From the IMG/VR virus record IMGVR_UViG_2609459769_000010: 20,229 bases of DNA. One strand, written 5' to 3'. Of the stretch, positions 1 to 14,104 are shown one piece after another; positions within the stretch are counted from its first letter, which is position 1; each line of letters opens with the position of its first letter. Below the pieces are notes generated by a model. That model had not been told where the DNA came from. It worked only from the letters and a program-made list of their open reading frames with translations, and did no database searches. Source of the stretch: a virus. Lineage: Duplodnaviria; Heunggongvirae; Uroviricota; Caudoviricetes. Made by a program: the position numbers and the translations under genes.

Positions 1-930
1 ATGAAGATATCTCTTGTAGTTCCTGTCTTCAATGAAGAAGAAGCGATACCAATTTTTTATAAAACGGTACGTGAATTCGAAGAATTGAAGTCATATGAAG
101 TGGAAATTGTTTTCATAAATGACGGCAGCAAAGACGCTACGGAGTCAATTATTAATGCTCTGGCTGTTTCAGATCCTCTAGTTGTTCCGCTGTCATTTAC
201 ACGCAACTTTGGTAAAGAACCAGCATTGTTTGCAGGGTTAGACCATGCAACTGGCGATGCCGTGATTCCAATTGATGTTGACCTGCAAGACCCGATTGAG
301 GTTATTCCTCATCTTATTGAAAAGTGGCAGGCAGGTGCTGATATGGTACTTGCTAAGCGCTCTGACCGTTCTACAGATGGAAGACTGAAGCGCAAGACTG
401 CTGAGTGGTTCTATAAACTTCACAACAAAATAAGCAACCCAAAAATTGAGGAGAACGTCGGAGATTTCCGACTAATGTCTCGAGGAGTTGTGGAAAACAT
501 TAAATTATTACCAGAACGCAACCTGTTCATGAAAGGAGTATTAAGCTGGGTTGGTGGTCGTACAGATGTTGTTGAATATGCTCGCGCTGAGCGCGTTGCA
601 GGAACAACTAAATTTAATGGGTGGAAATTATGGAACCTGGCTCTGGAGGGTATCACTAGCTTCTCTACATTTCCTCTGCGTATGTGGACTTACATCGGTC
701 TTTTTGTTGCCGGTTTGGCATTCATTTATGGTGCATGGATGATTTTAGATAAGCTGATATTTGGAAATGATGTTCCTGGGTATCCATCAATTATTGTGTC
801 TATACTATTTTTAGGTGGTGTGCAGCTTATAGGGATCGGTGTGCTTGGAGAATACATAGGAAGAATATATATTGAGTCAAAAAACAGACCAAGGTATCTT
901 TTAAAGGAAAATGACTGTGAAAAAAAGTAA
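1..930 (+). CDS. gtrB: Bactoprenol glucosyltransferase GtrB (GT2 family, O-antigen glucosylation/seroconversion)
   Basis: 309-aa ORF starting at window position 1. Translation recalled as near-identical to E. coli K-12 YfdH/GtrB and Shigella phage GtrB ([17 protein letters not shown]..., DGSKD, C-terminal TM helices). gtrA would lie just upstream, outside the window. Confidence 0.93.
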
Positions 931-2686
931 TTTAATTATAATATCAGCATTAGCTATAGTATATTGCTTGCCAATTATTCTTGGCACATCATATTATTAT
1001 GATGATCTTTTCCGAGCCTATTCAGGCTATAGCTCATGGAGTTCAGATGGAAGACCGTTTGCTAATACCTTTTATCAAATACTGACCTTTGGTCAAATGA
1101 TGCCTGATACGTTTCCACTTGCACTTATAGTATCAATTTTTATTTTTGCATATATCGGGAGCAAGCTTGGTAGTTTCTATGGTAAGATTAATTCATACAC
1201 TTACTGTTTTGCCTATACAACGATTATAATGTCACCATTATTTATATCTAATTTATTATTTAGATATGACTCTGCATTTATGATGCTTGCTATATCGGCC
1301 TGCATTGTTCCATACGTAGTTACTTTAGATAAAAAAATAAATATAGCTTTCGGCACTTTGGCTGTTATTTTTTCATTTGGACTTTATCAAGCAGCAGTTA
1401 GTATTTTTATTGCTTTTGCTGGTATAGAGCTATTTATAAATAGTTGTTTTCATGATGCAAAAAAAACCATTAAAAACTGCCTCATTAGAATAATGCAACT
1501 AGCTGTGGCTTATGTTATTTACTCAAAAATCATACTTGGATTTTTTGTAATTAACGACTATTTCAAAGAATTTAACAAACCTATATCACTAAGTGCAGAT
1601 GGTATATCGCGGTTAATGGCAAACATATCATCTTCTATGCATAACATAATATTGATGTTGAATTCTGGATTCTTAATAGCTGTAACTCCAATAATATGTT
1701 ACTCCCTTTTTTGTATTGTAAAGCACTCTATAACCAACAAGAAACCATATTCTATAATTGGTTTTATTCTGGCATTGGTTGCTTTATCTATTGCAGTTCC
1801 GGGTATAGCGATATTTGGTGAGAAGCCAATTTTCTATCCAAGAATTTATATTGGTGTTGGTGCATGTCTTTTCTTCATATGCTTCATACCAGTTATGTTG
1901 AATGGGAATAAGAAGATAACTATTGCTGTGCAATTTATTTTCATTTTTTATCTATTTGGCATGATTAACGCAACAAGCAATGCGGTTAGATCTGACGTTG
2001 AGTTTCAAAAAGCAACGTCTCAGAGAATTATAAACATAATTGATAGCAGTTACCTTTCAATTAATCATAAAGTTGTTATTCTTGGTCAACTTCGCCAGTC
2101 TCCATTATCATACATCAACTCATTATCATATCCATTGATTAACATATTGTCGCCGCAGCACTTTATCAATGGTTATGACGGTGGTCGATTCGTACTTATG
2201 CATGAGGGGCTTGACAATATTGAATATCCGGATATTCAAGAGCAAAGCAAATACAGAGATGCAATTAAAAATTCAAAACCAATATTCTCAAACAATATTT
2301 TTTCAATATATAACATTAATTCAACTACGGTCATATCTTTTGAGAATACATTATATGACGAAGCGAATAATAAGATGATACCATATACATTTAAGAGTAA
2401 CATGGTAAGTAATGCTCATTACGGTGATAAGTATTTCTATGCTTGCATTTCAAATACAGTATCCCCTACTCTTAAAAGAAACGAGTGGTACTATCTACTT
2501 ATTCACAATAAAGATGGTTCAGTCATTAACAGAAATTTTTTCGCTCCTTATTCAATGCATAATGACGAAAGTACATGCGTTAACACTCAATGGAAGGAAC
2601 CTGTTTCGTTAGAAGATATAAACTCAATTGAGTTTGGAATTTACAACATAGAAACAATGCAAAGGCGGTTAGATCTAGGCTCATAA
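911..2686 (+). CDS. GtrC-type serotype-specific O-antigen glycosyltransferase, polytopic membrane protein with long hydrophilic C-terminal domain
   Basis: 591-aa ORF overlapping the gtrB stop by 20 nt, with AAGGAAA RBS. N-terminal ~370 aa are very hydrophobic (multiple TM helices); C-terminal ~220 aa are hydrophilic. Strongly AT-rich compared with the rest of the window. Sits where the third gtr gene is found in P22/SfX-type conversion modules. Confidence 0.6.
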
Positions 2687-2690
2687 TTTT

Positions 2691-2714
2691 AAGGCCTCTG
2701 TTGAGGCCTTTTTA
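2691..2714 (+). terminator. Rho-independent terminator of the gtr operon
   Basis: AAGGCCTC-TGTT-GAGGCCTT hairpin followed by TTTT, 5 nt after the gtrC stop. Confidence 0.6.
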
Positions 2715-2893
2715 CGTAATATTTAAATTCCTATACATTCCGTTACCATACCACGCTTGATCTGGATGCCATGGTTTCAGCGCATATGAATTCGTCTATA
2801 TTTATTAAAAATTTCTCTGGATATGCGGTAGATAGTGCTATTTATTCACATAATAAAATAAGAATAGATTTACTCGTATATAACTATGTTTGA

Positions 2894-2931
2894 TAGAATT
2901 AAGAAAACGGCTCCCTGTAGTGGAAGCCGTT
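2894..2931 (-). terminator. Possible terminator downstream of tailspike
   Basis: AACGGCT / AGCCGTT 7-bp stem (12-nt loop) followed on the - strand by TTTCTTAATTCT. About 80 nt past the tailspike stop. Confidence 0.3.
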
Positions 2932-3007
2932 ATAGTGCTGCAGTTTAAAGACAGATCAACCAATCCTTAACTGATCGGCATTGCCGGATGACCGGGCTTT
3001 TACATTT

Positions 3008-5212
3008 TTAGAATGCTTTCAATGTAGAGGCTTCTGAACCAGCACAGGTAAGAACTATCTTGTAGTACCCGGTTTTAGCCCCCCCTGAAACTCCTGACCA
3101 GTCAAAATTTAACTGCAATATAGCTCCGTTTTCATTTGGCGCACCGTAATTAACACTAGGTGCCCCTGGAGTAGAGATATCGAACATTGGCATATTTGCC
3201 GCCACTGAGTTTGCATTATACGAGTTGGTATTTCTGGCATCATTTCCTTGAGATGCAGTGATTACAGGCCATTCACCACCCAGAGCACTCTTTTGTACCA
3301 CCTCTATCGTTGCAGGTCCATTTCTCAACAACACTCCCTCGTAATACACATTTCCATGCGTACCACCGGTTCCATGTATTTGTATAGTGGCGAATCCGCA
3401 ATCAGCATAGTTGACTGATGGATCGAACGTCTGATGATACATATCAGATGGCAATGGCATAACAACTGCTGATAGTGTTGCTGGGGATGGCATTGATGTT
3501 CCTGTCCCAGTATTCATTGCAGGAACCCTGAGCTTTATTGATTCGGCTTTTCCACGAATGTTGCTGTATCCATCACCATGTGTATTGATCATATGAACAG
3601 GCCTAACAATTACTCCTTGAATAAACGCATTGCCATCAGCTATTTTTGCGAATGTAATTGTTTTCCATCCTCGACCAATCAATTGTCCGGCGTGCTTTAC
3701 CATTCCTGTGCTATTGCCGCCTCTATTACGAAGTGGCCATCCATATTGTTTTCCTTGATAACTTAGATTGCTACTAACTGGATAATTCAAATCGTAGTAT
3801 GGTGGCTTCGTTCCTGTGTAATTCTCAACTGGATGCTGAACCAGCATGCTTAAAACAACATCATCCCAACTGCCAATAACATCTATCTCAGCAGCTTCTG
3901 CATCAAGATAAAAGCTGTACGACATTACTGCGCTACCAGTTATCGGGAACTGTCCAGTTATTCGTTGTTGAGTATATGCAGCTCGATCAAAGACAATATT
4001 GAAATTGTTAGTAGGCAAGGCCATGCCAAAATGATCAGACATCATAGTGGGCCACATCATGATTTCTGATGATATTGGTTTGTACGATGGAGAAAGACCG
4101 CCAGCCATTAACATTGATGCGATTGCCTCACCCATTCGCTGATACCCCAATGAGTTAAAGTGGGTGCCGTCGCTTTGCACTACACCCTGTGGCATGTTGA
4201 ACTGAAGCTCGCCAAGGTTAATATGTGCGCAGTTATATAGTGTGGCTAAGTTTTTGACCTGAAATGCATATGACTGTTGGTAGTTAGCCAAGTTAAAATT
4301 GTACATACTAAAACTACCTGACGCAGTTTGACAAACAAGAACACCCATCCCCCAATCAATAAAGCGACGTATCAATTTTTCCATATACTCAAGGTACTCA
4401 TTGATGTCGCCCTCATTTGCATCGTTAATCGCATACATTAAAATTGCCAAGTCGCAATTAGGGTTTGTTTGCCAGTCAGGATTCTCATAGGCATTTTTTG
4501 CCGTGAAGCCTGAAATTGCCCTTACAGTTATTGATGTTGGCGCCCCTGATTGTTCCTCAAGATATGATCCAAGACGAACAGGATACGTAACTGTGGCATG
4601 AGTTGCGTTATCAGGGCTTCCTTCAACAATATCTGTTGATGAAATATCATATCCAGCAGTTATTGAATCTCCCTGACAAAGAATTTTTAATGGACTTCTT
4701 GATTTAATCAGGTAGTTTACATTAAGTAACATCCTTATATTTCTTGAACCATAGTTAGCAGAATCATTAGCAATATTACCTTTCGCATTATCATCAAGGG
4801 CTTCCTGAATCGTCTCTCCACTAACAGTGCCAATCATTCCTGCCCCAGTGCTTGATGTTAGTCTTTGTTCTAACTGATCGGGATCATACTTCAGCACATT
4901 TGGAAAATAGAACTGCTGCACACCGTACGCATCATAAACAGCCATAGAATGGCCTTGCACAGTTACGAATTTGGCAATCTGTCCGTTATATACCGGATAT
5001 CCGGCAGCATTTATAACGATTGGTTGTGACACTTGAACATGAGTGCCGTCTTCTCGTTCCAGATATACTGGAATCTGGTTTTCAGGATTTACCGGATCAG
5101 TGTCAATTTTACCGATATAAATTTTTCCATTGGCTACGGCTTTAAAAGAACGAGCCATAGTGAAGAGTTGCGAAGGCATCGATACGATCACATTGGCTGT
5201 AATGTCTGTCAT
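3008..5212 (-). CDS. Tailspike protein: P22 gp9-like N-terminal head-binding domain fused to SGNH/GDSL esterase domain and C-terminal beta-rich domain
   Basis: 734-aa ORF with GGAG RBS. First ~115 aa ([41 protein letters not shown]...VLKYDPDQ) match the P22 tailspike head-binding domain as recalled. Downstream carries SGNH hydrolase blocks: GDSIT (aa 181-185), INDAN (GxND-like), DGTHF (DxxH). Confidence 0.85.
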
Positions 5213-9757: not shown

Positions 9758-10602
9758 TGCTCCGCGATTATCTTGATGGTTGTGGCAGTAAACGCCGCAC
9801 CATTTGACTGAATGGTTAACGTGCTGCCATTTGTGGCAAGAAAGCCGTCTTTATCCACGCTGAAGAACGTAGCTAACAAGATGTTATCGGTTGTTGTCGC
9901 CGAGTTGCGACTGCTTACCAGTGTGTCAGGAACAGAACCGGAAAATGTTAGTTGCATTGACCTGTTGGCGGTTCCACTGGGCCACGTCCCGACAATCGAC
10001 AACTTGAAGAACAAGGTTTTGTTCTCGTTGAACACAACCATCTTGTTGTTAACGGTGTCGAAGAATGGTGCCAACGTGCCGGATGACGGCGTGAGCGTTT
10101 TCAGTAGGCTAACAAGGTTGGTCGGCGCTGTCGGAATGGTTACTGATACGCCAGAGTAAACAACCTCTGACTTCTTGCGCGTGGTTGCATACTCCAGAGC
10201 ATCAATGCGCGATTCATGATCTGAAACCTGCGACTCCAGCGACTGAACTCTTGTGTCAAGCGACGCAATATCGCTTTCATTCTGAGCTATTCGTGTTTCA
10301 TGTTCCTGAAGAGTTGATTCTGCCTGGCTGATTCGCTCCTCATGATTAACAAGCGTTGCTTCCGCAGCAGAAATTCGCTGCTCATGGTCAGCGAGAATCA
10401 CATCCTGCTCATCGTTCCTGACCTGTGCATCATAAGCGCCTTGTCCGGCCTCGTTGGCCTTGTTCGCCACATTACCAACATCAGCACCCTGTGCAATAAC
10501 GTAAAGCAGATACGACTGCGAGAAGATATTGCGTGGAAGGATTGATGTATCGAGCCGCGTCGCCTGAACAATAACAGGTGTATTGAGATTCGAATCCGCC
10601 AT
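9754..10602 (-). CDS. Tail needle protein (P22 gp26-like) with C-terminal knob domain
   Basis: 282 aa. N-terminus [43 protein letters not shown]...[18 protein letters not shown] matches the P22 gp26 N-terminus as recalled. Followed by a trimeric coiled-coil segment with a 14-aa periodic HExRI repeat, then a ~140-aa C-terminal domain (Sf6-type knob architecture). Confidence 0.85.
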
Positions 10603-12024
10603 TACTCAATCCTTATCTGAGCGCCAGACAGAGTGACAGGTGACTTCGTGATAACGCGCAATTTGAAGCCAACATTTTTCCTGATGCGCCCTACCCGCTT
10701 CCACAAAACGCGTTTGTCGTAAACGAACGGTTCATTCTGCTCAATCATCTGCTCACGCCCGTAATTGATGCCGTCAGTGGTTGCAGAGAGAAAAAGGCGG
10801 TCAGCATACTGCGCAACTCCAGTTGAAGATTCAACCTCAAGGTCGAACACCCGGGCGTTATCCGCTTTGAACAACGGAGTAAACAGCAGGTGTTCCTGTT
10901 GAAGCCCATACTGGCTGCTGATATCGAACTGCAATTTCCCGGTCACCGATTCCAGCTTATCGCCGCACGTTATTTGATTGCCTTCGTAAATGAAGTCGAT
11001 AGCGCGGTACACATCGTCATACAGGCCTGTTTTCAACACACACCATTGCGGACCATTGGCGCTTGAAGATGCGTCGTATACGAGGACATGGCGCGGAAGA
11101 TGGATAATCAGCAACTCATGCGCATCAAACCGCAACGATTCCATCACACCATCAGCCAGTTCATCAGCAGTGTAGGAGCGGAGGATTTTCTCAATGCTCG
11201 CGCTGGCGATTGGTGACACCTGACCGGAGCCGATGATGTATACAGATGGCGCACCCGTTGCCGGATTGCTGATGAACGCATACGAATCAGCAAACGGCGT
11301 TTTGCAGTAAGTCCCGGCGATGCCTTTTTGCACCATCAGTGATGGCTGTGCGACATACAAAGCAGCACCAACGGTGGTTGCGCCAGTCAGGGAGAAATAT
11401 TCAATAGTCGATGAACCAAAGCAGACGATGAAGTCTCGCCATGTCCCGATACCGATGATGCCGTCCGGCTGAGACTCGGCACGATATTGTGCGCTGTAAC
11501 GGTCAGGATGCGATTCGTCTTCAAGGTCAGTGATAAACCATGAATCAGTGCCGTCTTTTGACCACGCATAACGCCCACGTAAGCGCGTAATGTCACGAAC
11601 CGAACCTAACTCATACTGAGTGAATCCGCTGTCTGTAGGCCAGTTTGAGACTGTTTTAACCGTGCCATCATAGCGATACTCGACCAGTTGACCATTAACA
11701 CCTACCGCCTGTGATGTCCGACCATGCGCCATTGATACACGACCACTTCCGGCAACATCACCGACTTCACTTTCTCCTTTGTACAGCTTGCCGCCACACA
11801 CGCGATAAACAGCACTCTGCGCCATGTTGTACTCAACTCCGCGCGATACGCCGTTCACATCAGAACGTTTGGCAATGCCCGGGAATGAGCGAAGATAGTC
11901 TGTAAACACCAACAAGGCGCTCTGCGAACGCCCTGTTATTTGCTGCGGCTACCACTAATCCCTCAGGTGAATCAGGGTGTCGAATCTCTTCTTTTTCCTG
12001 GTATTTCTTACGACGTTTTGTCAT
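10602..12024 (-). pseudogene. P22 gp10-like tail hub/head-completion gene, reading frame interrupted (two frames)
   Basis: The 437-aa gp10-like frame (10602..11915) has no ATG; an in-frame TAG lies at 11949-11951. A strong AGGAG RBS plus ATG at 12024 opens a second frame (MTKRRKKYQEKEEIRHPDSPEGL...) that stops at 11860, overlapping the first. Span from 12024 to the gp10-like stop is ~473 codons, close to the P22 gp10 length (~472 aa, recalled). Frameshifted gene, sequencing indel or deletion fusion are all possible. Confidence 0.5.
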
Positions 12025-12058
12025 AATTACTCCTGTGGATTGATCCAGTCTTTCTACA

Positions 12059-12337
12059 TCAGGCCTCAAAACTGTTGCAGCAGTCTTGAGGCTTTTCTTT
12101 TGTCAGCACCATGGCTACTTTCTTTGCCAGCTCCGCTAATTCCTCGTCTTCAACACCCCACTCCAGCACAGCCAGAAGCATGGCCATCTTTGGGATAAAG
12201 CTGTCTTTCCATCGCGAAATTTGCGATTCATTAATCCCTAACGCGTCGGCAACCTTTCGCTGACCACGTACAGCAATTCGATTCAGGATGTTGCTTGTAA
12301 TTGCATTCGCTTTCTTGCGAGTACTTGTAAGTTGCAT
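12059..12337 (-). CDS. cII: Transcriptional activator CII
   Basis: 92-aa product (MQLTSTRKK...SQISRWK...MLLAVLEWGV) aligns with lambda CII (QISRWK, MLLAVLEWGV). The 5' leader ...TTATCTAAGGAAATACTTACATATG is essentially the lambda cII leader. Confidence 0.85.
   Translation of the reverse strand: MQLTSTRKKANAITSNILNRIAVRGQRKVADALGINESQISRWKDSFIPKMAMLLAVLEWGVEDEELAELAKKVAMVLTKEKPQDCCNSFEA
12291..12330 (+). promoter_or_regulatory. Candidate CII-dependent promoter (pRE-like) TTGC-N6-TTGC motifs
   Basis: On the + strand inside the 5' end of cII: TTGCTTGTAATTGC (perfect TTGC-N6-TTGC) and TTGCGAGTACTTGT. Lambda pRE sits in the same place and orientation. Confidence 0.3.
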
Positions 12338-12416
12338 ATGTAAGTATTTCCTTAGATAACAATTGATTGAATGTATGCAAATAAATGCATACACCATAGG
12401 TGTGGTTTAACTTGAT

Positions 12417-12456: not shown

Positions 12457-12672
12457 TTAAGCGGCTTTGTGTTCCGGCGGGAACACGTCATCAAGACTGA
12501 CTTTTGCGCCTAACTTGTTTAGGCACTCAACAAGAGCACGGCATGTTTTAAGGTCTGGGAAGCGACGACCAGATTCCCAATGTCCGATAGCTCCCTGTGT
12601 GCATCCAACTGCCTTAGCAAGTGTTGTTTGAGAGATATTCAGTGACTCTCGATATTTTCGTAGGTTGCTCAT
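12457..12672 (-). CDS. cro: Cro-like repressor (HTH, XRE family)
   Basis: 71-aa product MSNLRKYRESLNISQTTLAKAVGCTQGAIGHWESGRRFP..., with GGAGGG RBS. Divergent from cI, first gene of the pR transcript. Its recognition-helix motif TQG-IGHW..G.R.P is shared with the cI N-terminal domain. Confidence 0.75.
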   Translation of the reverse strand: MSNLRKYRESLNISQTTLAKAVGCTQGAIGHWESGRRFPDLKTCRALVECLNKLGAKVSLDDVFPPEHKAA

Positions 12673-12698
12673 ATGCCCTCCATAGTAACCATGAAGCA

Positions 12699-12727
12699 AT
12701 AATACGATATGTACTTTTAGAATGCAA
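12699..12727 (-). promoter_or_regulatory. pR promoter with embedded operator (oR1-like)
   Basis: - strand reads TTGCAT - 17 nt (TCTAAAAGTACATATCG) - TATTAT. The spacer and -10 contain AAAGTACATATCGTATTAT, almost the same as the element in pL. Confidence 0.55.
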
Positions 12728-12783
12728 ACAAAAAATACATCTTGTGCATGGATGATTTTAGTACAGAGCGTAATAATAAGGGT

Positions 12784-13443
12784 ATGAAAATGAAATGGTA
12801 TGAACTGGCTAGATCCAGAATGAAAGAGCTCGGCATAACTCAAGAGAAGTTAGCTGAAGAGCTTGGTATGACGCAGGGTGGAATTGGTCACTGGTTGCGC
12901 GGATCTCGTCATCCATCTCTTGACGAGATTGGTGTGGTGTTTAAATACCTTGGTATTGATAACGTCTCATTCAACCACGACGGTACATTTTCACCTGTTG
13001 GCGAATACTCATCTGCCCCCGTTAAAAAACAATATGAGTACCCTGTTTTTTCTCATGTTCAGGCCGGGATGTTCTCGCCTGAGCTTAGAACCTTTACCAA
13101 AGGTGATGCGGAGAGATGGGTCAGCACAACCAAAAAAGCCAGTGATTGTGCGTTCTGGCTTGAAGTTGAAGGTAATTCCATGACCGCGCCAACAGGATCC
13201 AAGCCAAGCTTTCCTGACGGGATGTTAATTCTCGTTGACCCTGAGCAGGCTGTTGAGCCAGGTGATTTCTGCATAGCCAGACTTGGTGGTGACGAGTTTA
13301 CCTTCAAGAAACTGATCAGGGATAGCGGTCAGGTGTTCCTACAGCCACTAAACCCGCAATATCCAATGATTCCATGCAATGATAGCTGTTTCGTAGTAGG
13401 GAAAGTTATCGCCAGCCAGTGGCCTGAAGAGACATTTAGTTAA
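12784..13443 (+). CDS. cI: CI repressor (S24 peptidase/LexA-like C-terminal domain; distinct N-terminal HTH domain)
   Basis: C-terminal ~130 aa ([115 protein letters not shown]...) nearly identical to lambda CI as recalled. N-terminal ~90 aa HTH domain is unlike lambda CI. Start chosen at ATG 12784 (MKMKWYEL...); the upstream TTG/ATG at 12742/12748 are alternatives. Confidence 0.85.
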
Positions 13444-13667: not shown

Positions 13668-13777
13668 AGCATTCAAAGCAGAAGGCTTTGAGTAGCGCGA
13701 AATGCAGCTGCAAGACAGCAACCGTGGAGATAAGCATCACGGCGCGTTACTCAAAGCTAACTGACAGGAGAATCCAG

Positions 13778-14104
13778 ATGGATGCACAAACACGCCGCCG
13801 CGAACGTCGCGCAGAGAAACAGGCTCAATGGAAAGCAGCAAATCCCCTGTTGGTTGGGGTAAGCGCAAAACCAGTTAACCGCCCTATTCTCTCGCTGAAT
13901 CGCAAACCGAAATCACGAGTAGAAAGCGCACTGAATCCGATAGACCTTACGGTGCTGGCTGAATACCACGAACAGATTGAAAGCAACCTGCAACGTATTG
14001 AGCGCAAGAATCAGCGCACATGGTACAGCAAGCCACGCAGTGAAATGGGGGTGACTTGTGTTGGTCGCCAGAAAATGAAATTAGGCAGCAAACCACTTAT
14101 TTGA
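13778..14104 (+). CDS. N: Antitermination protein N
   Basis: 108-aa product MDAQTRRRERRAEKQAQWKAANPLLVGVSAKPVNRPILSLNRKPKSRVESALNPIDLTVLAEYH..., near-identical to lambda N over most of its length. AGGAG RBS. Confidence 0.9.
   Translation: MDAQTRRRERRAEKQAQWKAANPLLVGVSAKPVNRPILSLNRKPKSRVESALNPIDLTVLAEYHEQIESNLQRIERKNQRTWYSKPRSEMGVTCVGRQKMKLGSKPLI

What the first reader, a model, noticed from the sequence alone, without database searches (positions are those of the whole stretch)
911..2686. Unusually long, AT-rich GtrC-type glycosyltransferase suggests a distinct O-antigen modification specificity
The third gene of the gtr module encodes a 591-aa polytopic membrane protein with a ~220-aa hydrophilic C-terminal domain. 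It is markedly more AT-rich than gtrB and the rest of the prophage, consistent with separate horizontal origin. The serotype-specific Gtr proteins I recall are mostly shorter, so this may be a new specificity class. It is encoded convergently with a receptor-binding tailspike, the classic arrangement for lysogenic conversion that blocks superinfection.
Basis: partly seen in the sequence, partly recalled or inferred. Interest (0 to 1): 0.55.

Follow-up and report, generated by a model that had tools for sequence, protein, structure and literature searches.

The report
O6-linked prophage GtrC glucosyltransferase
This is an intact prophage gene for the membrane enzyme that adds a glucose side-branch to the bacterial O-antigen; it is an ordinary kind of serotype-conversion gene, but from an uncharacterised family that has an extra C-terminal domain and is found only in bacteria with the E. 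coli O6 / Salmonella O:40 type of O-antigen.

Summary
The ORF at 911-2686 is real. It is the third gene of a gtrA-gtrB-gtrC cassette in a defective P22-like prophage and lies convergent with the tailspike, as in phage P22. It matches the GtrC profiles (Pfam PF14264, PHROG 4829), and its AlphaFold model has a GT-C fold.

Its AT-richness is real but generic: 31.9% GC here, and P22 gtrC is 31.8%. The extra length is real. Residues 1-480 are a complete P22-type GtrC (27% identity). Residues ~483-591 form an extra Ig-like beta-sandwich found only in this ~589-aa subfamily.

No characterised Gtr is close to it. The main new result concerns distribution:
- All 6 of 5426 complete E. coli genomes that carry the gene are serogroup O6.
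- Its homologues in Salmonella (O:40 serovars), Citrobacter and Morganella sit in genomes whose O-antigen clusters are collinear orthologues of the O6 cluster.
- In S. bongori, published data place gtr operons only in strains with the O:1 factor, including O1,40.

Best reading: an Und-P-glucose-dependent glucosyltransferase specific for the O6/O40-type O-unit. The extra domain is possibly an acceptor-binding module. This is a new member of a known kind, of modest interest.

The parts
1..930 (+). gtrB: bactoprenol-phosphate glucosyltransferase (GT2). It makes the Und-P-glucose donor.
   Evidence: Pfam PF00535, E 1e-30. 89% identical to P22 GtrB over 302 aa. Annotated yfdH/GT2 in identical E. 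coli loci.
911..2686 (+). gtrC: serotype-specific GT-C glucosyltransferase. 591 aa from ATG 911; the probable true start is GTG 917, giving 589 aa.
989..1108 (+). First periplasmic loop (residues 27-66) with the invariant motif YY-DD-x2-R...W...GR...D. D31/D32 lie at nt 1001-1006. This is the predicted catalytic and donor-binding loop.
   Evidence: Y29, D31, D32, R35, W43, G47, R48, D66 and P69 are invariant in 28-29 homologues down to 22% identity. The position after TM1 is typical of GT-C enzymes (PMC11127046).
911..1978 (+). Membrane core, residues 1-356, about 11 transmembrane helices.
   Evidence: Hydropathy and positive-inside count. Helices in the model.
1979..2356 (+). Periplasmic alpha/beta domain (residues 357-482) shared with P22-type GtrC proteins.
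   Evidence: The alignment with P22 GtrC runs to P22's last residue, query residue 475. The 477-483-aa relatives end here.
2357..2683 (+). C-terminal extension (residues 483-591): an eight-strand Ig/FnIII-like beta-sandwich with two invariant cysteines (C512, C556). It is specific to the ~589-aa subfamily.
2691..2714 (+). Terminator-like hairpin directly after the gtrC stop codon (AAGGCCUC-UGUU-GAGGCCUU followed by U's).
   Evidence: -14 kcal/mol, z -4.3 against shuffles. The U-run is too short for the consensus scanner.
2906..2931 (-). Terminator of the convergent tailspike gene.
   Evidence: 10-bp stem followed by TTTTCTT. -16.5 kcal/mol, z -5.6.
3008..5212 (-). Convergent tailspike (734 aa): P22-type head-binding domain plus an SGNH/GDSL esterase-type receptor domain.
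   Evidence: PF09008, E 2e-64. PF13472, E 8e-12. Residues 109-720 match PDB 9d84 'Gp48', E 1e-95.

Best explanation
The gene encodes the serotype-specific third component of a phage GtrABC O-antigen glucosylation system.

Proposed mechanism:
- GtrB (1-930) charges undecaprenyl phosphate with glucose in the cytoplasm.
- GtrA, just upstream of the window, flips Und-P-Glc to the periplasm.
- This GT-C enzyme uses the acidic loop after TM1 (D31/D32) to transfer the glucose onto the O-antigen in the periplasm. This changes the cell-surface antigen and probably phage adsorption.

The acceptor is most likely the E. coli O6 / Salmonella O:40-type O-unit. The extra C-terminal Ig-like domain most likely acts as an accessory module that contacts the acceptor polysaccharide, or stabilises the periplasmic domain that does.

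Shown here: the gene structure, family membership, fold, conservation, genomic context, and co-distribution with one O-antigen cluster type.

Inferred: glucose as the sugar, the O-antigen as acceptor, the role of the extra domain, and expression.
For: Family and fold:
- PF14264 and PHROG 4829 matches.
- GT-C fold of a confident model.
- Invariant DD-containing first periplasmic loop.

Donor: GtrB is 89% identical to P22 GtrB.

Context:
- The cassette order gtrA-gtrB-gtrC convergent with the tailspike equals the P22 order.
- Homologues in Morganella and S. salamae are likewise the third gene of gtrAB cassettes, next to a tailspike or an acyltransferase.

Selection: dN/dS is about 0.2 for the whole gene and 0.26 for the extension.

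Acceptor, within E. coli:
- The gene occurs in 6 of 5426 complete E. coli genomes, even in a low-stringency search.
- All six carry O6 wzx/wzy. That is 6/154 O6 genomes against 0/5272 others, Fisher p = 5e-10.
- Judged from gene context and record coordinates, they represent at least three integration sites, with three different tailspike arrangements.

Acceptor, across genera:
- O6 Wzy relatives outside E. coli are in Salmonella (one cluster named serovar 40:z4,z23, i.e. O:40), Citrobacter, Enterobacter hormaechei and Morganella. The first, second and fourth of these genera also hold 589-aa GtrC homologues.
- Both genes occur in the same assemblies. In Morganella these are GCA_053980975.1 and GCA_050918795.1.
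- In Citrobacter and S. salamae the two genes share contig lengths and have neighbouring accession numbers, which points to the same genomes.
- The Salmonella O-antigen cluster is gene-for-gene collinear with O6, with products 55-69% identical. This resembles the 55-62% identity between the GtrC proteins.

Serology: in S. bongori, gtr operons were found only in strains with the O:1 factor (O1,40:z81, O1,40:z35, O1,13,22:i).

Precedents:
- Long periplasmic C-terminal regions of Shigella GtrI, II, V and X are thought to confer specificity (PMC3259042).
- A GT-C O-antigen side-chain transferase with a C-terminal carbohydrate-binding module that binds the unmodified backbone has been described (PMC11127046).
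Against: - No biochemical or serological data exist for this protein or any close relative.
- Salmonella GtrC families II and IV gave no detectable O-antigen change, so a gtrC gene does not guarantee O-antigen modification.
- The prophage in the window is defective, with an internal deletion, and expression is unknown.
- In the source contig the region upstream of gtrA has one GATC instead of the four in the P22 phase-variation switch.
- The O6 cluster already encodes four glycosyltransferases. As I recall the published O6 structure, its known Glc/GlcNAc side-branch is therefore already accounted for, and no additional glucosylated O6 structure is known to me.
- Co-distribution with O6-type clusters could partly reflect the host range of the carrier phages rather than enzyme specificity.
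- The O-type of the window's own source genome could not be checked.
Confidence: 0.72

Rival explanations
1. The link with O6/O40-type clusters reflects only the host range of the phages that carry the cassette. The enzyme itself is not specific for that O-unit, or modifies a residue common to many O-antigens.
For: [quoted passage not shown] All E. coli copies lie in P22-like prophages next to tailspikes.
Against: The cassette is joined to at least four unrelated receptor-binding proteins: a beta-helix tailspike with an acyltransferase, a second tailspike in E423, the SGNH type here, and Tail_spike_N types in Morganella. It also occurs in different phage backbones and in four genera, yet always with the same O-cluster type. 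GtrC divergence (55-62%) parallels divergence of the O-cluster proteins.
Confidence: 0.12
2. The gene is a silent or non-functional relic of a decayed prophage, or, like Salmonella GtrC families II and IV, does not visibly modify the O-antigen.
For: The prophage lacks its head, lysis and replication genes. The upstream region lacks the canonical four-GATC switch. Families II and IV showed no O-antigen shift.
Against: The reading frame is intact. All family-invariant residues are present. dN/dS is about 0.2. The coding sequence is identical in the complete genome JKHS016, and the exact protein is indexed in 180 blocks of the assembly collection. gtrB overlaps gtrC, and a terminator follows gtrC.
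Confidence: 0.1
3. The system transfers a sugar other than glucose, as in the three-component systems that add galactose or pentofuranoses.
For: Three-component GT-C systems for Gal, Ribf, Xylf and Araf exist.
Against: Those systems use different donor synthases and flippases. Here GtrB is 89% identical to the P22 Und-P-Glc synthase, and a GtrA-family flippase lies upstream.
Confidence: 0.04

Closest known systems
Phage P22 GtrC (Salmonella GtrC family I; O:1 factor, glucose 1->6 on galactose)
   Same: Closest characterised relative found: 27% identity end to end over the P22 protein, and the same PHROG. Same cassette order and same position convergent with the tailspike. Same GC pattern. GtrB is 89% identical.
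   Different: Far below the >96% identity seen within a GtrC family. Carries an extra 108-aa Ig-like domain. Found with O6/O40-type O-units rather than the Gal-Rha-Man units of Salmonella groups A/B/D.
Salmonella O:40 (group R) GtrC, including S. bongori 40:z35:- (one of the ten families of Davies et al. 2013)
   Same: Same ~589-aa architecture including the extension, 55-56% identity. The hosts have O-antigen clusters orthologous to E. coli O6.
   Different: Only 55-56% identical, so it is a sister group rather than the same family by the Davies criterion. No activity has been assigned. Its link to the O:1 factor is correlative.
Shigella flexneri Gtr(type) enzymes (GtrI, II, IV, V, X, Ic)
   Same: Same three-component mechanism. 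Same Pfam family name (PF14264 is 'GtrII'). A long periplasmic C-terminal region is thought to set specificity in GtrI, II, V and X.
   Different: No Shigella phage among the tblastn matches at E <= 1e-5. Different acceptor (a rhamnose-GlcNAc backbone).
Citrobacter youngae O1 ORF12 (GT136), a GT-C O-antigen side-chain transferase with a C-terminal CBM
   Same: A GT-C enzyme of a three-component periplasmic O-antigen modification system, with an added C-terminal extracytoplasmic beta-domain. In ORF12 that domain binds the unmodified backbone.
   Different: Transfers ribofuranose from a different donor pathway. No sequence relationship was tested. The domain here has only generic Ig-like similarity.

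Membership tests
GtrC / Gtr(type) serotype-converting glucosyltransferases (Pfam PF14264; PHROG 4829) | Sequence match to the family profile above the curated threshold | tested here: met
   PF14264: 86.3 bits against a cut-off of 30, residues 25-321. PHROG 4829: E 2.5e-63 over residues 3-479.
GtrC / Gtr(type) serotype-converting glucosyltransferases (Pfam PF14264; PHROG 4829) | Third gene of a gtrA-gtrB-gtr(type) cassette on a prophage | tested here: met
   gtrB overlaps its start. gtrA lies upstream in the identical source contig. P22-like virion genes are adjacent.
GtrC / Gtr(type) serotype-converting glucosyltransferases (Pfam PF14264; PHROG 4829) | Polytopic inner-membrane protein with a periplasmic loop after TM1 and a large periplasmic C-terminal region | tested here: met
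   Prediction only: about 11 hydrophobic segments, positive-inside rule satisfied, 235-aa C-terminal tail. Model.
GtrC / Gtr(type) serotype-converting glucosyltransferases (Pfam PF14264; PHROG 4829) | Transfers glucose from Und-P-Glc to a defined position of the O-antigen, changing the serotype | not testable with these tools
   Needs LPS chemistry or serology. The indirect support is 89% GtrB identity to P22 and co-distribution with one O-cluster type.
GT-C fold glycosyltransferases (lipid-phosphate-sugar dependent) | GT-C membrane fold | tested here: met
GT-C fold glycosyltransferases (lipid-phosphate-sugar dependent) | Conserved acidic residue(s) in the first extracytoplasmic loop | tested here: met
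   D31, D32 and D66 are invariant across 28-29 homologues.
Salmonella GtrC family I (P22; O:1) | More than 96% amino-acid identity within a family (Davies et al. 2013) | tested here: not met
   27% identity to P22 GtrC. Criterion.
Salmonella O:40-associated GtrC family (S. bongori / S. enterica group R) | More than 96% amino-acid identity within a family; same 589-aa architecture | tested here: not met
   The architecture is shared, but identity is only 55-56%. It is a sister lineage rather than the same family by that criterion.
CBM-bearing GT-C O-antigen modifiers (GT136 ORF12 type) | C-terminal domain binds the unmodified acceptor polysaccharide | not testable with these tools
   The domain is an Ig-like sandwich with generic matches only. 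A binding assay is required.

The most novel reading that the evidence does not exclude
The 589-aa GtrC lineage is a dedicated, co-diverging modifier of one O-antigen backbone type shared by E. coli O6, Salmonella O:40, Citrobacter and Morganella. Its lineage-specific Ig-like C-terminal domain is a previously undescribed polysaccharide-reading module that sets this specificity. Under this reading the enzyme creates the 'O:1' epitope of Salmonella group R (1,40) and a so far unrecognised glucosylated subtype of E. coli O6.
Probability: 0.3. Interest if true: 0.5.

Novelty: new member of a known kind. Interest (0 to 1): 0.33.

Why it matters
Phage-encoded side-chain glucosylation changes serotype, phage sensitivity and antibody recognition. 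O6 is, to my knowledge, a medically important E. coli serogroup and a component of candidate O-antigen vaccines. The O:1 factor of Salmonella group R has no assigned gene.

A specific, testable assignment (this GtrC family modifies the O6/O40-type O-unit) would give a genetic marker for hidden O6 heterogeneity. It would also give a candidate for O:1 in '1,40' serovars. The added Ig-like domain offers a simple system to test how GT-C side-chain transferases recognise their polysaccharide acceptor.

Tried and rejected
- Pfam on the C-terminal 112 and 235 aa gave no match, even at E 10. NCBIfam had no model for the protein.
- A PDB sequence search gave nothing at E 10. No GtrC structure is solved.
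- AT-richness as a sign of something special was rejected after comparison with P22, Morganella, S. salamae and the O6 cluster.
- Literature searches for the Salmonella O:40 structure, for glucosylated O6 and for a structural study of GtrC found nothing directly usable. The O6 repeat-unit structure could not be read from the held review.
- The Citrobacter gtrC genes used for O7/O26 typing belong to wzm (ABC-transporter) serotypes and were not pursued.
- I could not determine the O-type of the window's own source assembly, because only +/-10 kb around the gene could be fetched.
Full report
**1. The observation**

The window has an open reading frame at 911..2686 on the + strand, 591 codons from an ATG. 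It overlaps the end of an upstream 309-aa ORF (1..930). That ORF is a GT2 enzyme (PF00535), 89% identical to phage P22 GtrB.

The more likely start is the GTG at 917, giving 589 aa:
- RefSeq annotates the identical gene that way (WP_032182875.1).
- The 589-aa homologues in Morganella and S. salamae begin with an ATG at the aligned position.
- The AGGA at 903-906 is better spaced for 917.

Hydropathy gives about 11 membrane segments ending near residue 356, then 235 hydrophilic residues. An N-in/C-out model obeys the positive-inside rule.

GC content is 31.9% for gtrC, 40.5% for gtrB, 42.0% for the tailspike and 49.2% for the virion genes.

The window is 100% identical over 12,686 nt to contig JNRE01000005.1 of assembly GCA_000704525.1. 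There the order is dacD, an S24-peptidase gene, gtrA, gtrB, gtrC, then the convergent tailspike. 'Third gene of the gtr module' is therefore correct, although gtrA lies outside the window. Both convergent genes end in strong hairpins.

**2. What it is**

The protein matches Pfam PF14264 (Glucos_trans_II) at 86.3 bits against a cut-off of 30. It matches PHROG 4829, 'GtrC-like O-antigen conversion translocase', at E 2.5e-63. Residues 3-479 cover profile positions 6-482 of 485.

The best match among 50,697 phage records is P22 GtrC, at 27% identity. The pairwise alignment runs from residue 11 to 475 of the 589-aa protein and reaches the last residue of the 486-aa P22 protein.

Residues invariant across homologues down to 22% identity cluster in the loop after TM1: Y29, D31, D32, R35, W43, G47, R48, D66, P69. 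GT-C enzymes carry their catalytic acidic residues in this loop.

**3. Why it is long**

The alignment shows two length classes. Relatives of 477-524 aa (22-36% identity) end with a motif aligned to residues ~466-478 of this protein. A subfamily of 588-589 aa (46-84% identity) continues for about 108 more residues.

Properties of this extension (residues 483-591):
- It has no Pfam match.
- Modelled alone it folds confidently (pLDDT 90.3) into an eight-strand beta-sandwich.
- A full HMMER scan of 1.84 billion representative proteins found the domain in three entries. Two are 589-aa GtrC proteins and one is a 203-aa protein.
- Two cysteines (C512, C556) and an EWYYL motif are invariant. This fits a disulfide-bonded periplasmic domain.
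- It evolves under purifying selection like the rest of the protein: dN/dS 0.26 against 0.20 overall. Non-synonymous divergence from the Salmonella and Morganella homologues is equal across regions.

**4. AT-richness is generic**

gtrC and gtrB GC content:

| Source | gtrC | gtrB |
|---|---|---|
| Window | 31.9% | 40.5% |
| P22 | 31.8% | 41.8% |
| Morganella homologue | 33.2% | 45.9% |
| S. salamae homologue | 32.4% | 44.8% |

The E. coli O6 wzx and wzy genes are 31% GC. The composition is the usual signature of gtr(type) and O-unit-processing genes. It says nothing particular about this gene.

**5. Distribution and the likely acceptor**

Within E. coli:
- The gene is in only 6 of 5426 complete genomes, at 96-100% identity. 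A low-stringency search adds no more.
- All six carry O6-family wzx/wzy, in the allele shared with E. coli W (>=99.9% identical). O6 makes up 154 of 5426 genomes, so the split is 6/154 against 0/5272 (Fisher p = 5e-10).
- The copies are not one clone. The gene context and record coordinates indicate at least three insertion sites (dacD/sbcB, bio/ybhB, and a third in E423). Counting the window, there are four arrangements downstream of gtrC.

Outside E. coli:
- The 589-aa family occurs in Citrobacter freundii, C. portucalensis, C. werkmanii and C. sedlakii, in Morganella morganii, and in Salmonella.
- The named Salmonella members are serovars of group O:40: Johannesburg, Springs, subsp. VII 40:z4,z24, and S. 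bongori 40:z35.
- Searching with the O6 polymerase Wzy returned the same three genera, plus one Enterobacter hormaechei protein. Hits were Salmonella (one cluster named arizonae 40:z4,z23; also salamae and houtenae), Citrobacter and Morganella.
- Both Morganella assemblies with the GtrC homologue also hold the Wzy homologue.
- Citrobacter and S. salamae records share contig lengths and have neighbouring accession numbers for the two proteins.
- A Salmonella cluster carrying one of these Wzy homologues (from the group that includes S. salamae and S. houtenae) is collinear with O6: wzx, wzy, GT2, GT4, GT, epimerase, GT4, manC. Its products are 55-69% identical to those of O6. This is the same range as the GtrC proteins (55-62%).
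- The Morganella cluster shares six of these genes at 41-55%.

This pattern recurs across four genera, different phage types and unrelated receptor-binding proteins. The simplest explanation is that this GtrC lineage acts on the O6/O40-type O-unit.

**6. Link to serology**

Davies et al. (PMC3688519) grouped Salmonella GtrC proteins into ten families. Identity is >96% within a family and similarity <46% between families. They noted gtr operons in S. bongori of groups G and R.

Their Table S2 shows that among 28 S. bongori strains the three gtr-positive ones are exactly those whose formula includes O:1 (O1,40:z81, O1,40:z35, O1,13,22:i). The O13,22 strains without factor 1 are negative.

The 589-aa GtrC of S. 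bongori 40:z35 is therefore a good candidate for the O:1 determinant of group R. The closest characterised relative, P22 GtrC, makes O:1 in groups A/B/D. This is correlation, not proof. The E. coli protein is only 55-56% identical to the Salmonella one.

**7. Mechanism**

Established for the system (and Shigella work): GtrB makes Und-P-Glc. GtrA is the proposed flippase. The serotype-specific GT-C enzyme glucosylates the O-polysaccharide in the periplasm.

Inferred here:
- The donor is glucose, from the 89% GtrB identity.
- The acceptor is the O6-type unit, from the co-distribution.
- The Ig-like extension is an accessory acceptor-contacting module. Two precedents support this. The GT136 enzyme ORF12 has a C-terminal carbohydrate-binding module that binds the unmodified backbone. 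The periplasmic C-terminal regions of GtrI, II, V and X are thought to confer specificity.

The O6 cluster already encodes four glycosyltransferases. From memory of the published O6 structures (Jann et al. 1994; not verified here), the repeat is GalNAc-Man-Man-GlcNAc with a Glc or GlcNAc branch. This enzyme would then add a further, undescribed glucose.

**8. Caveats and rivals**

- Host range of the carrier phages may contribute to the co-distribution.
- Some GtrC families show no O-antigen effect.
- The prophage is defective, and the upstream region differs from the P22 phase-variation switch.
- The O-type of the window's source genome was not checked.
- None of this removes the basic assignment. 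It limits confidence in the specific acceptor and in expression.

**9. Verdict**

This is a bona fide GtrC-type O-antigen glucosyltransferase in the classic P22-like position. It is an ordinary kind of element.

Three things go beyond the ordinary:
- It belongs to an uncharacterised lineage.
- It carries a lineage-specific Ig-like C-terminal domain.
- It is strictly associated with one O-antigen cluster type across genera, which gives a concrete, testable specificity.

The conclusion (a distinct specificity) is likely right, but two of its arguments (AT-richness, and length as such) carry little weight. Novelty: a new member of a known kind. Interest: about 0.33.

Noticed in passing
window 3008-5212 (-): The tailspike joins a P22 head-binding domain to an SGNH/GDSL esterase-type receptor domain. 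The GDS motif ([10 protein letters not shown]) and a DxxH motif (SDGTHF) are present. Residues 109-720 match PDB 9d84 'Gp48' (E 1e-95). It is 41% identical to the tailspike of Salmonella phage g341c. It may deacetylate rather than cleave its receptor.
   Followed up: partly
window 2687-3007; L001 13777-15132; L017 12023-13126: In most other E. coli copies, gtrC is followed by a convergent acyltransferase-3 gene and a beta-helix tailspike. S. salamae also has the acyltransferase. In the window both are replaced by the SGNH tailspike, and homology to the common arrangement ends near window position 2905. E. coli E423 (O6) has a gtrC prophage and, at another locus, a 99.1% copy of this SGNH tailspike. 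This hints that an acetylating phage and a deacetylating phage target the same O-antigen.
   Followed up: partly
window 10602-12400: The prophage is defective. The gp10 homologue lacks its first ~36 profile positions and abuts the immunity region: cII 12062-12397, a Cro-like gene 12460-12843, a CI-like S24 repressor 12742-13440, and N 13688-14101. The head, portal, terminase, lysis and replication genes are missing.
   Followed up: partly
L020 8613-8725 (source contig, upstream of gtrA; outside the window): The gtrA upstream region has one GATC, against four in the P22 Dam/OxyR phase-variation switch. It contains a LexA-box-like palindrome (TACTGTATATTAATACAGTA) between a divergent S24-peptidase gene and gtrA. 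The proximal leader is conserved with P22. Regulation may differ from the classical phase-variable gtr operons.
   Followed up: no
L009 8007-9776 (E. coli E423 gtrC allele): The 96% allele in E423 is mosaic. Synonymous divergence is 0.035 in the membrane part and 0.39 in the C-terminal extension. Its end (RRVDLGS) resembles the 84% Citrobacter/E. coli allele. A different tailspike follows after 29 bp. A recombination breakpoint therefore lies inside the 3' part of gtrC.
   Followed up: partly
window 903-919: Start codon ambiguity: ATG at 911 gives 591 aa and GTG at 917 gives 589 aa. Homologue lengths, RefSeq and the Shine-Dalgarno spacing favour 917.
   Followed up: yes
protein cluster of P0010 (Salmonella O:40 GtrC): Many Salmonella Johannesburg entries of this GtrC are fragments of 140-225 aa marked partial. 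This may mean the gene is often broken at contig ends, or disrupted, in that serovar.
   Followed up: no
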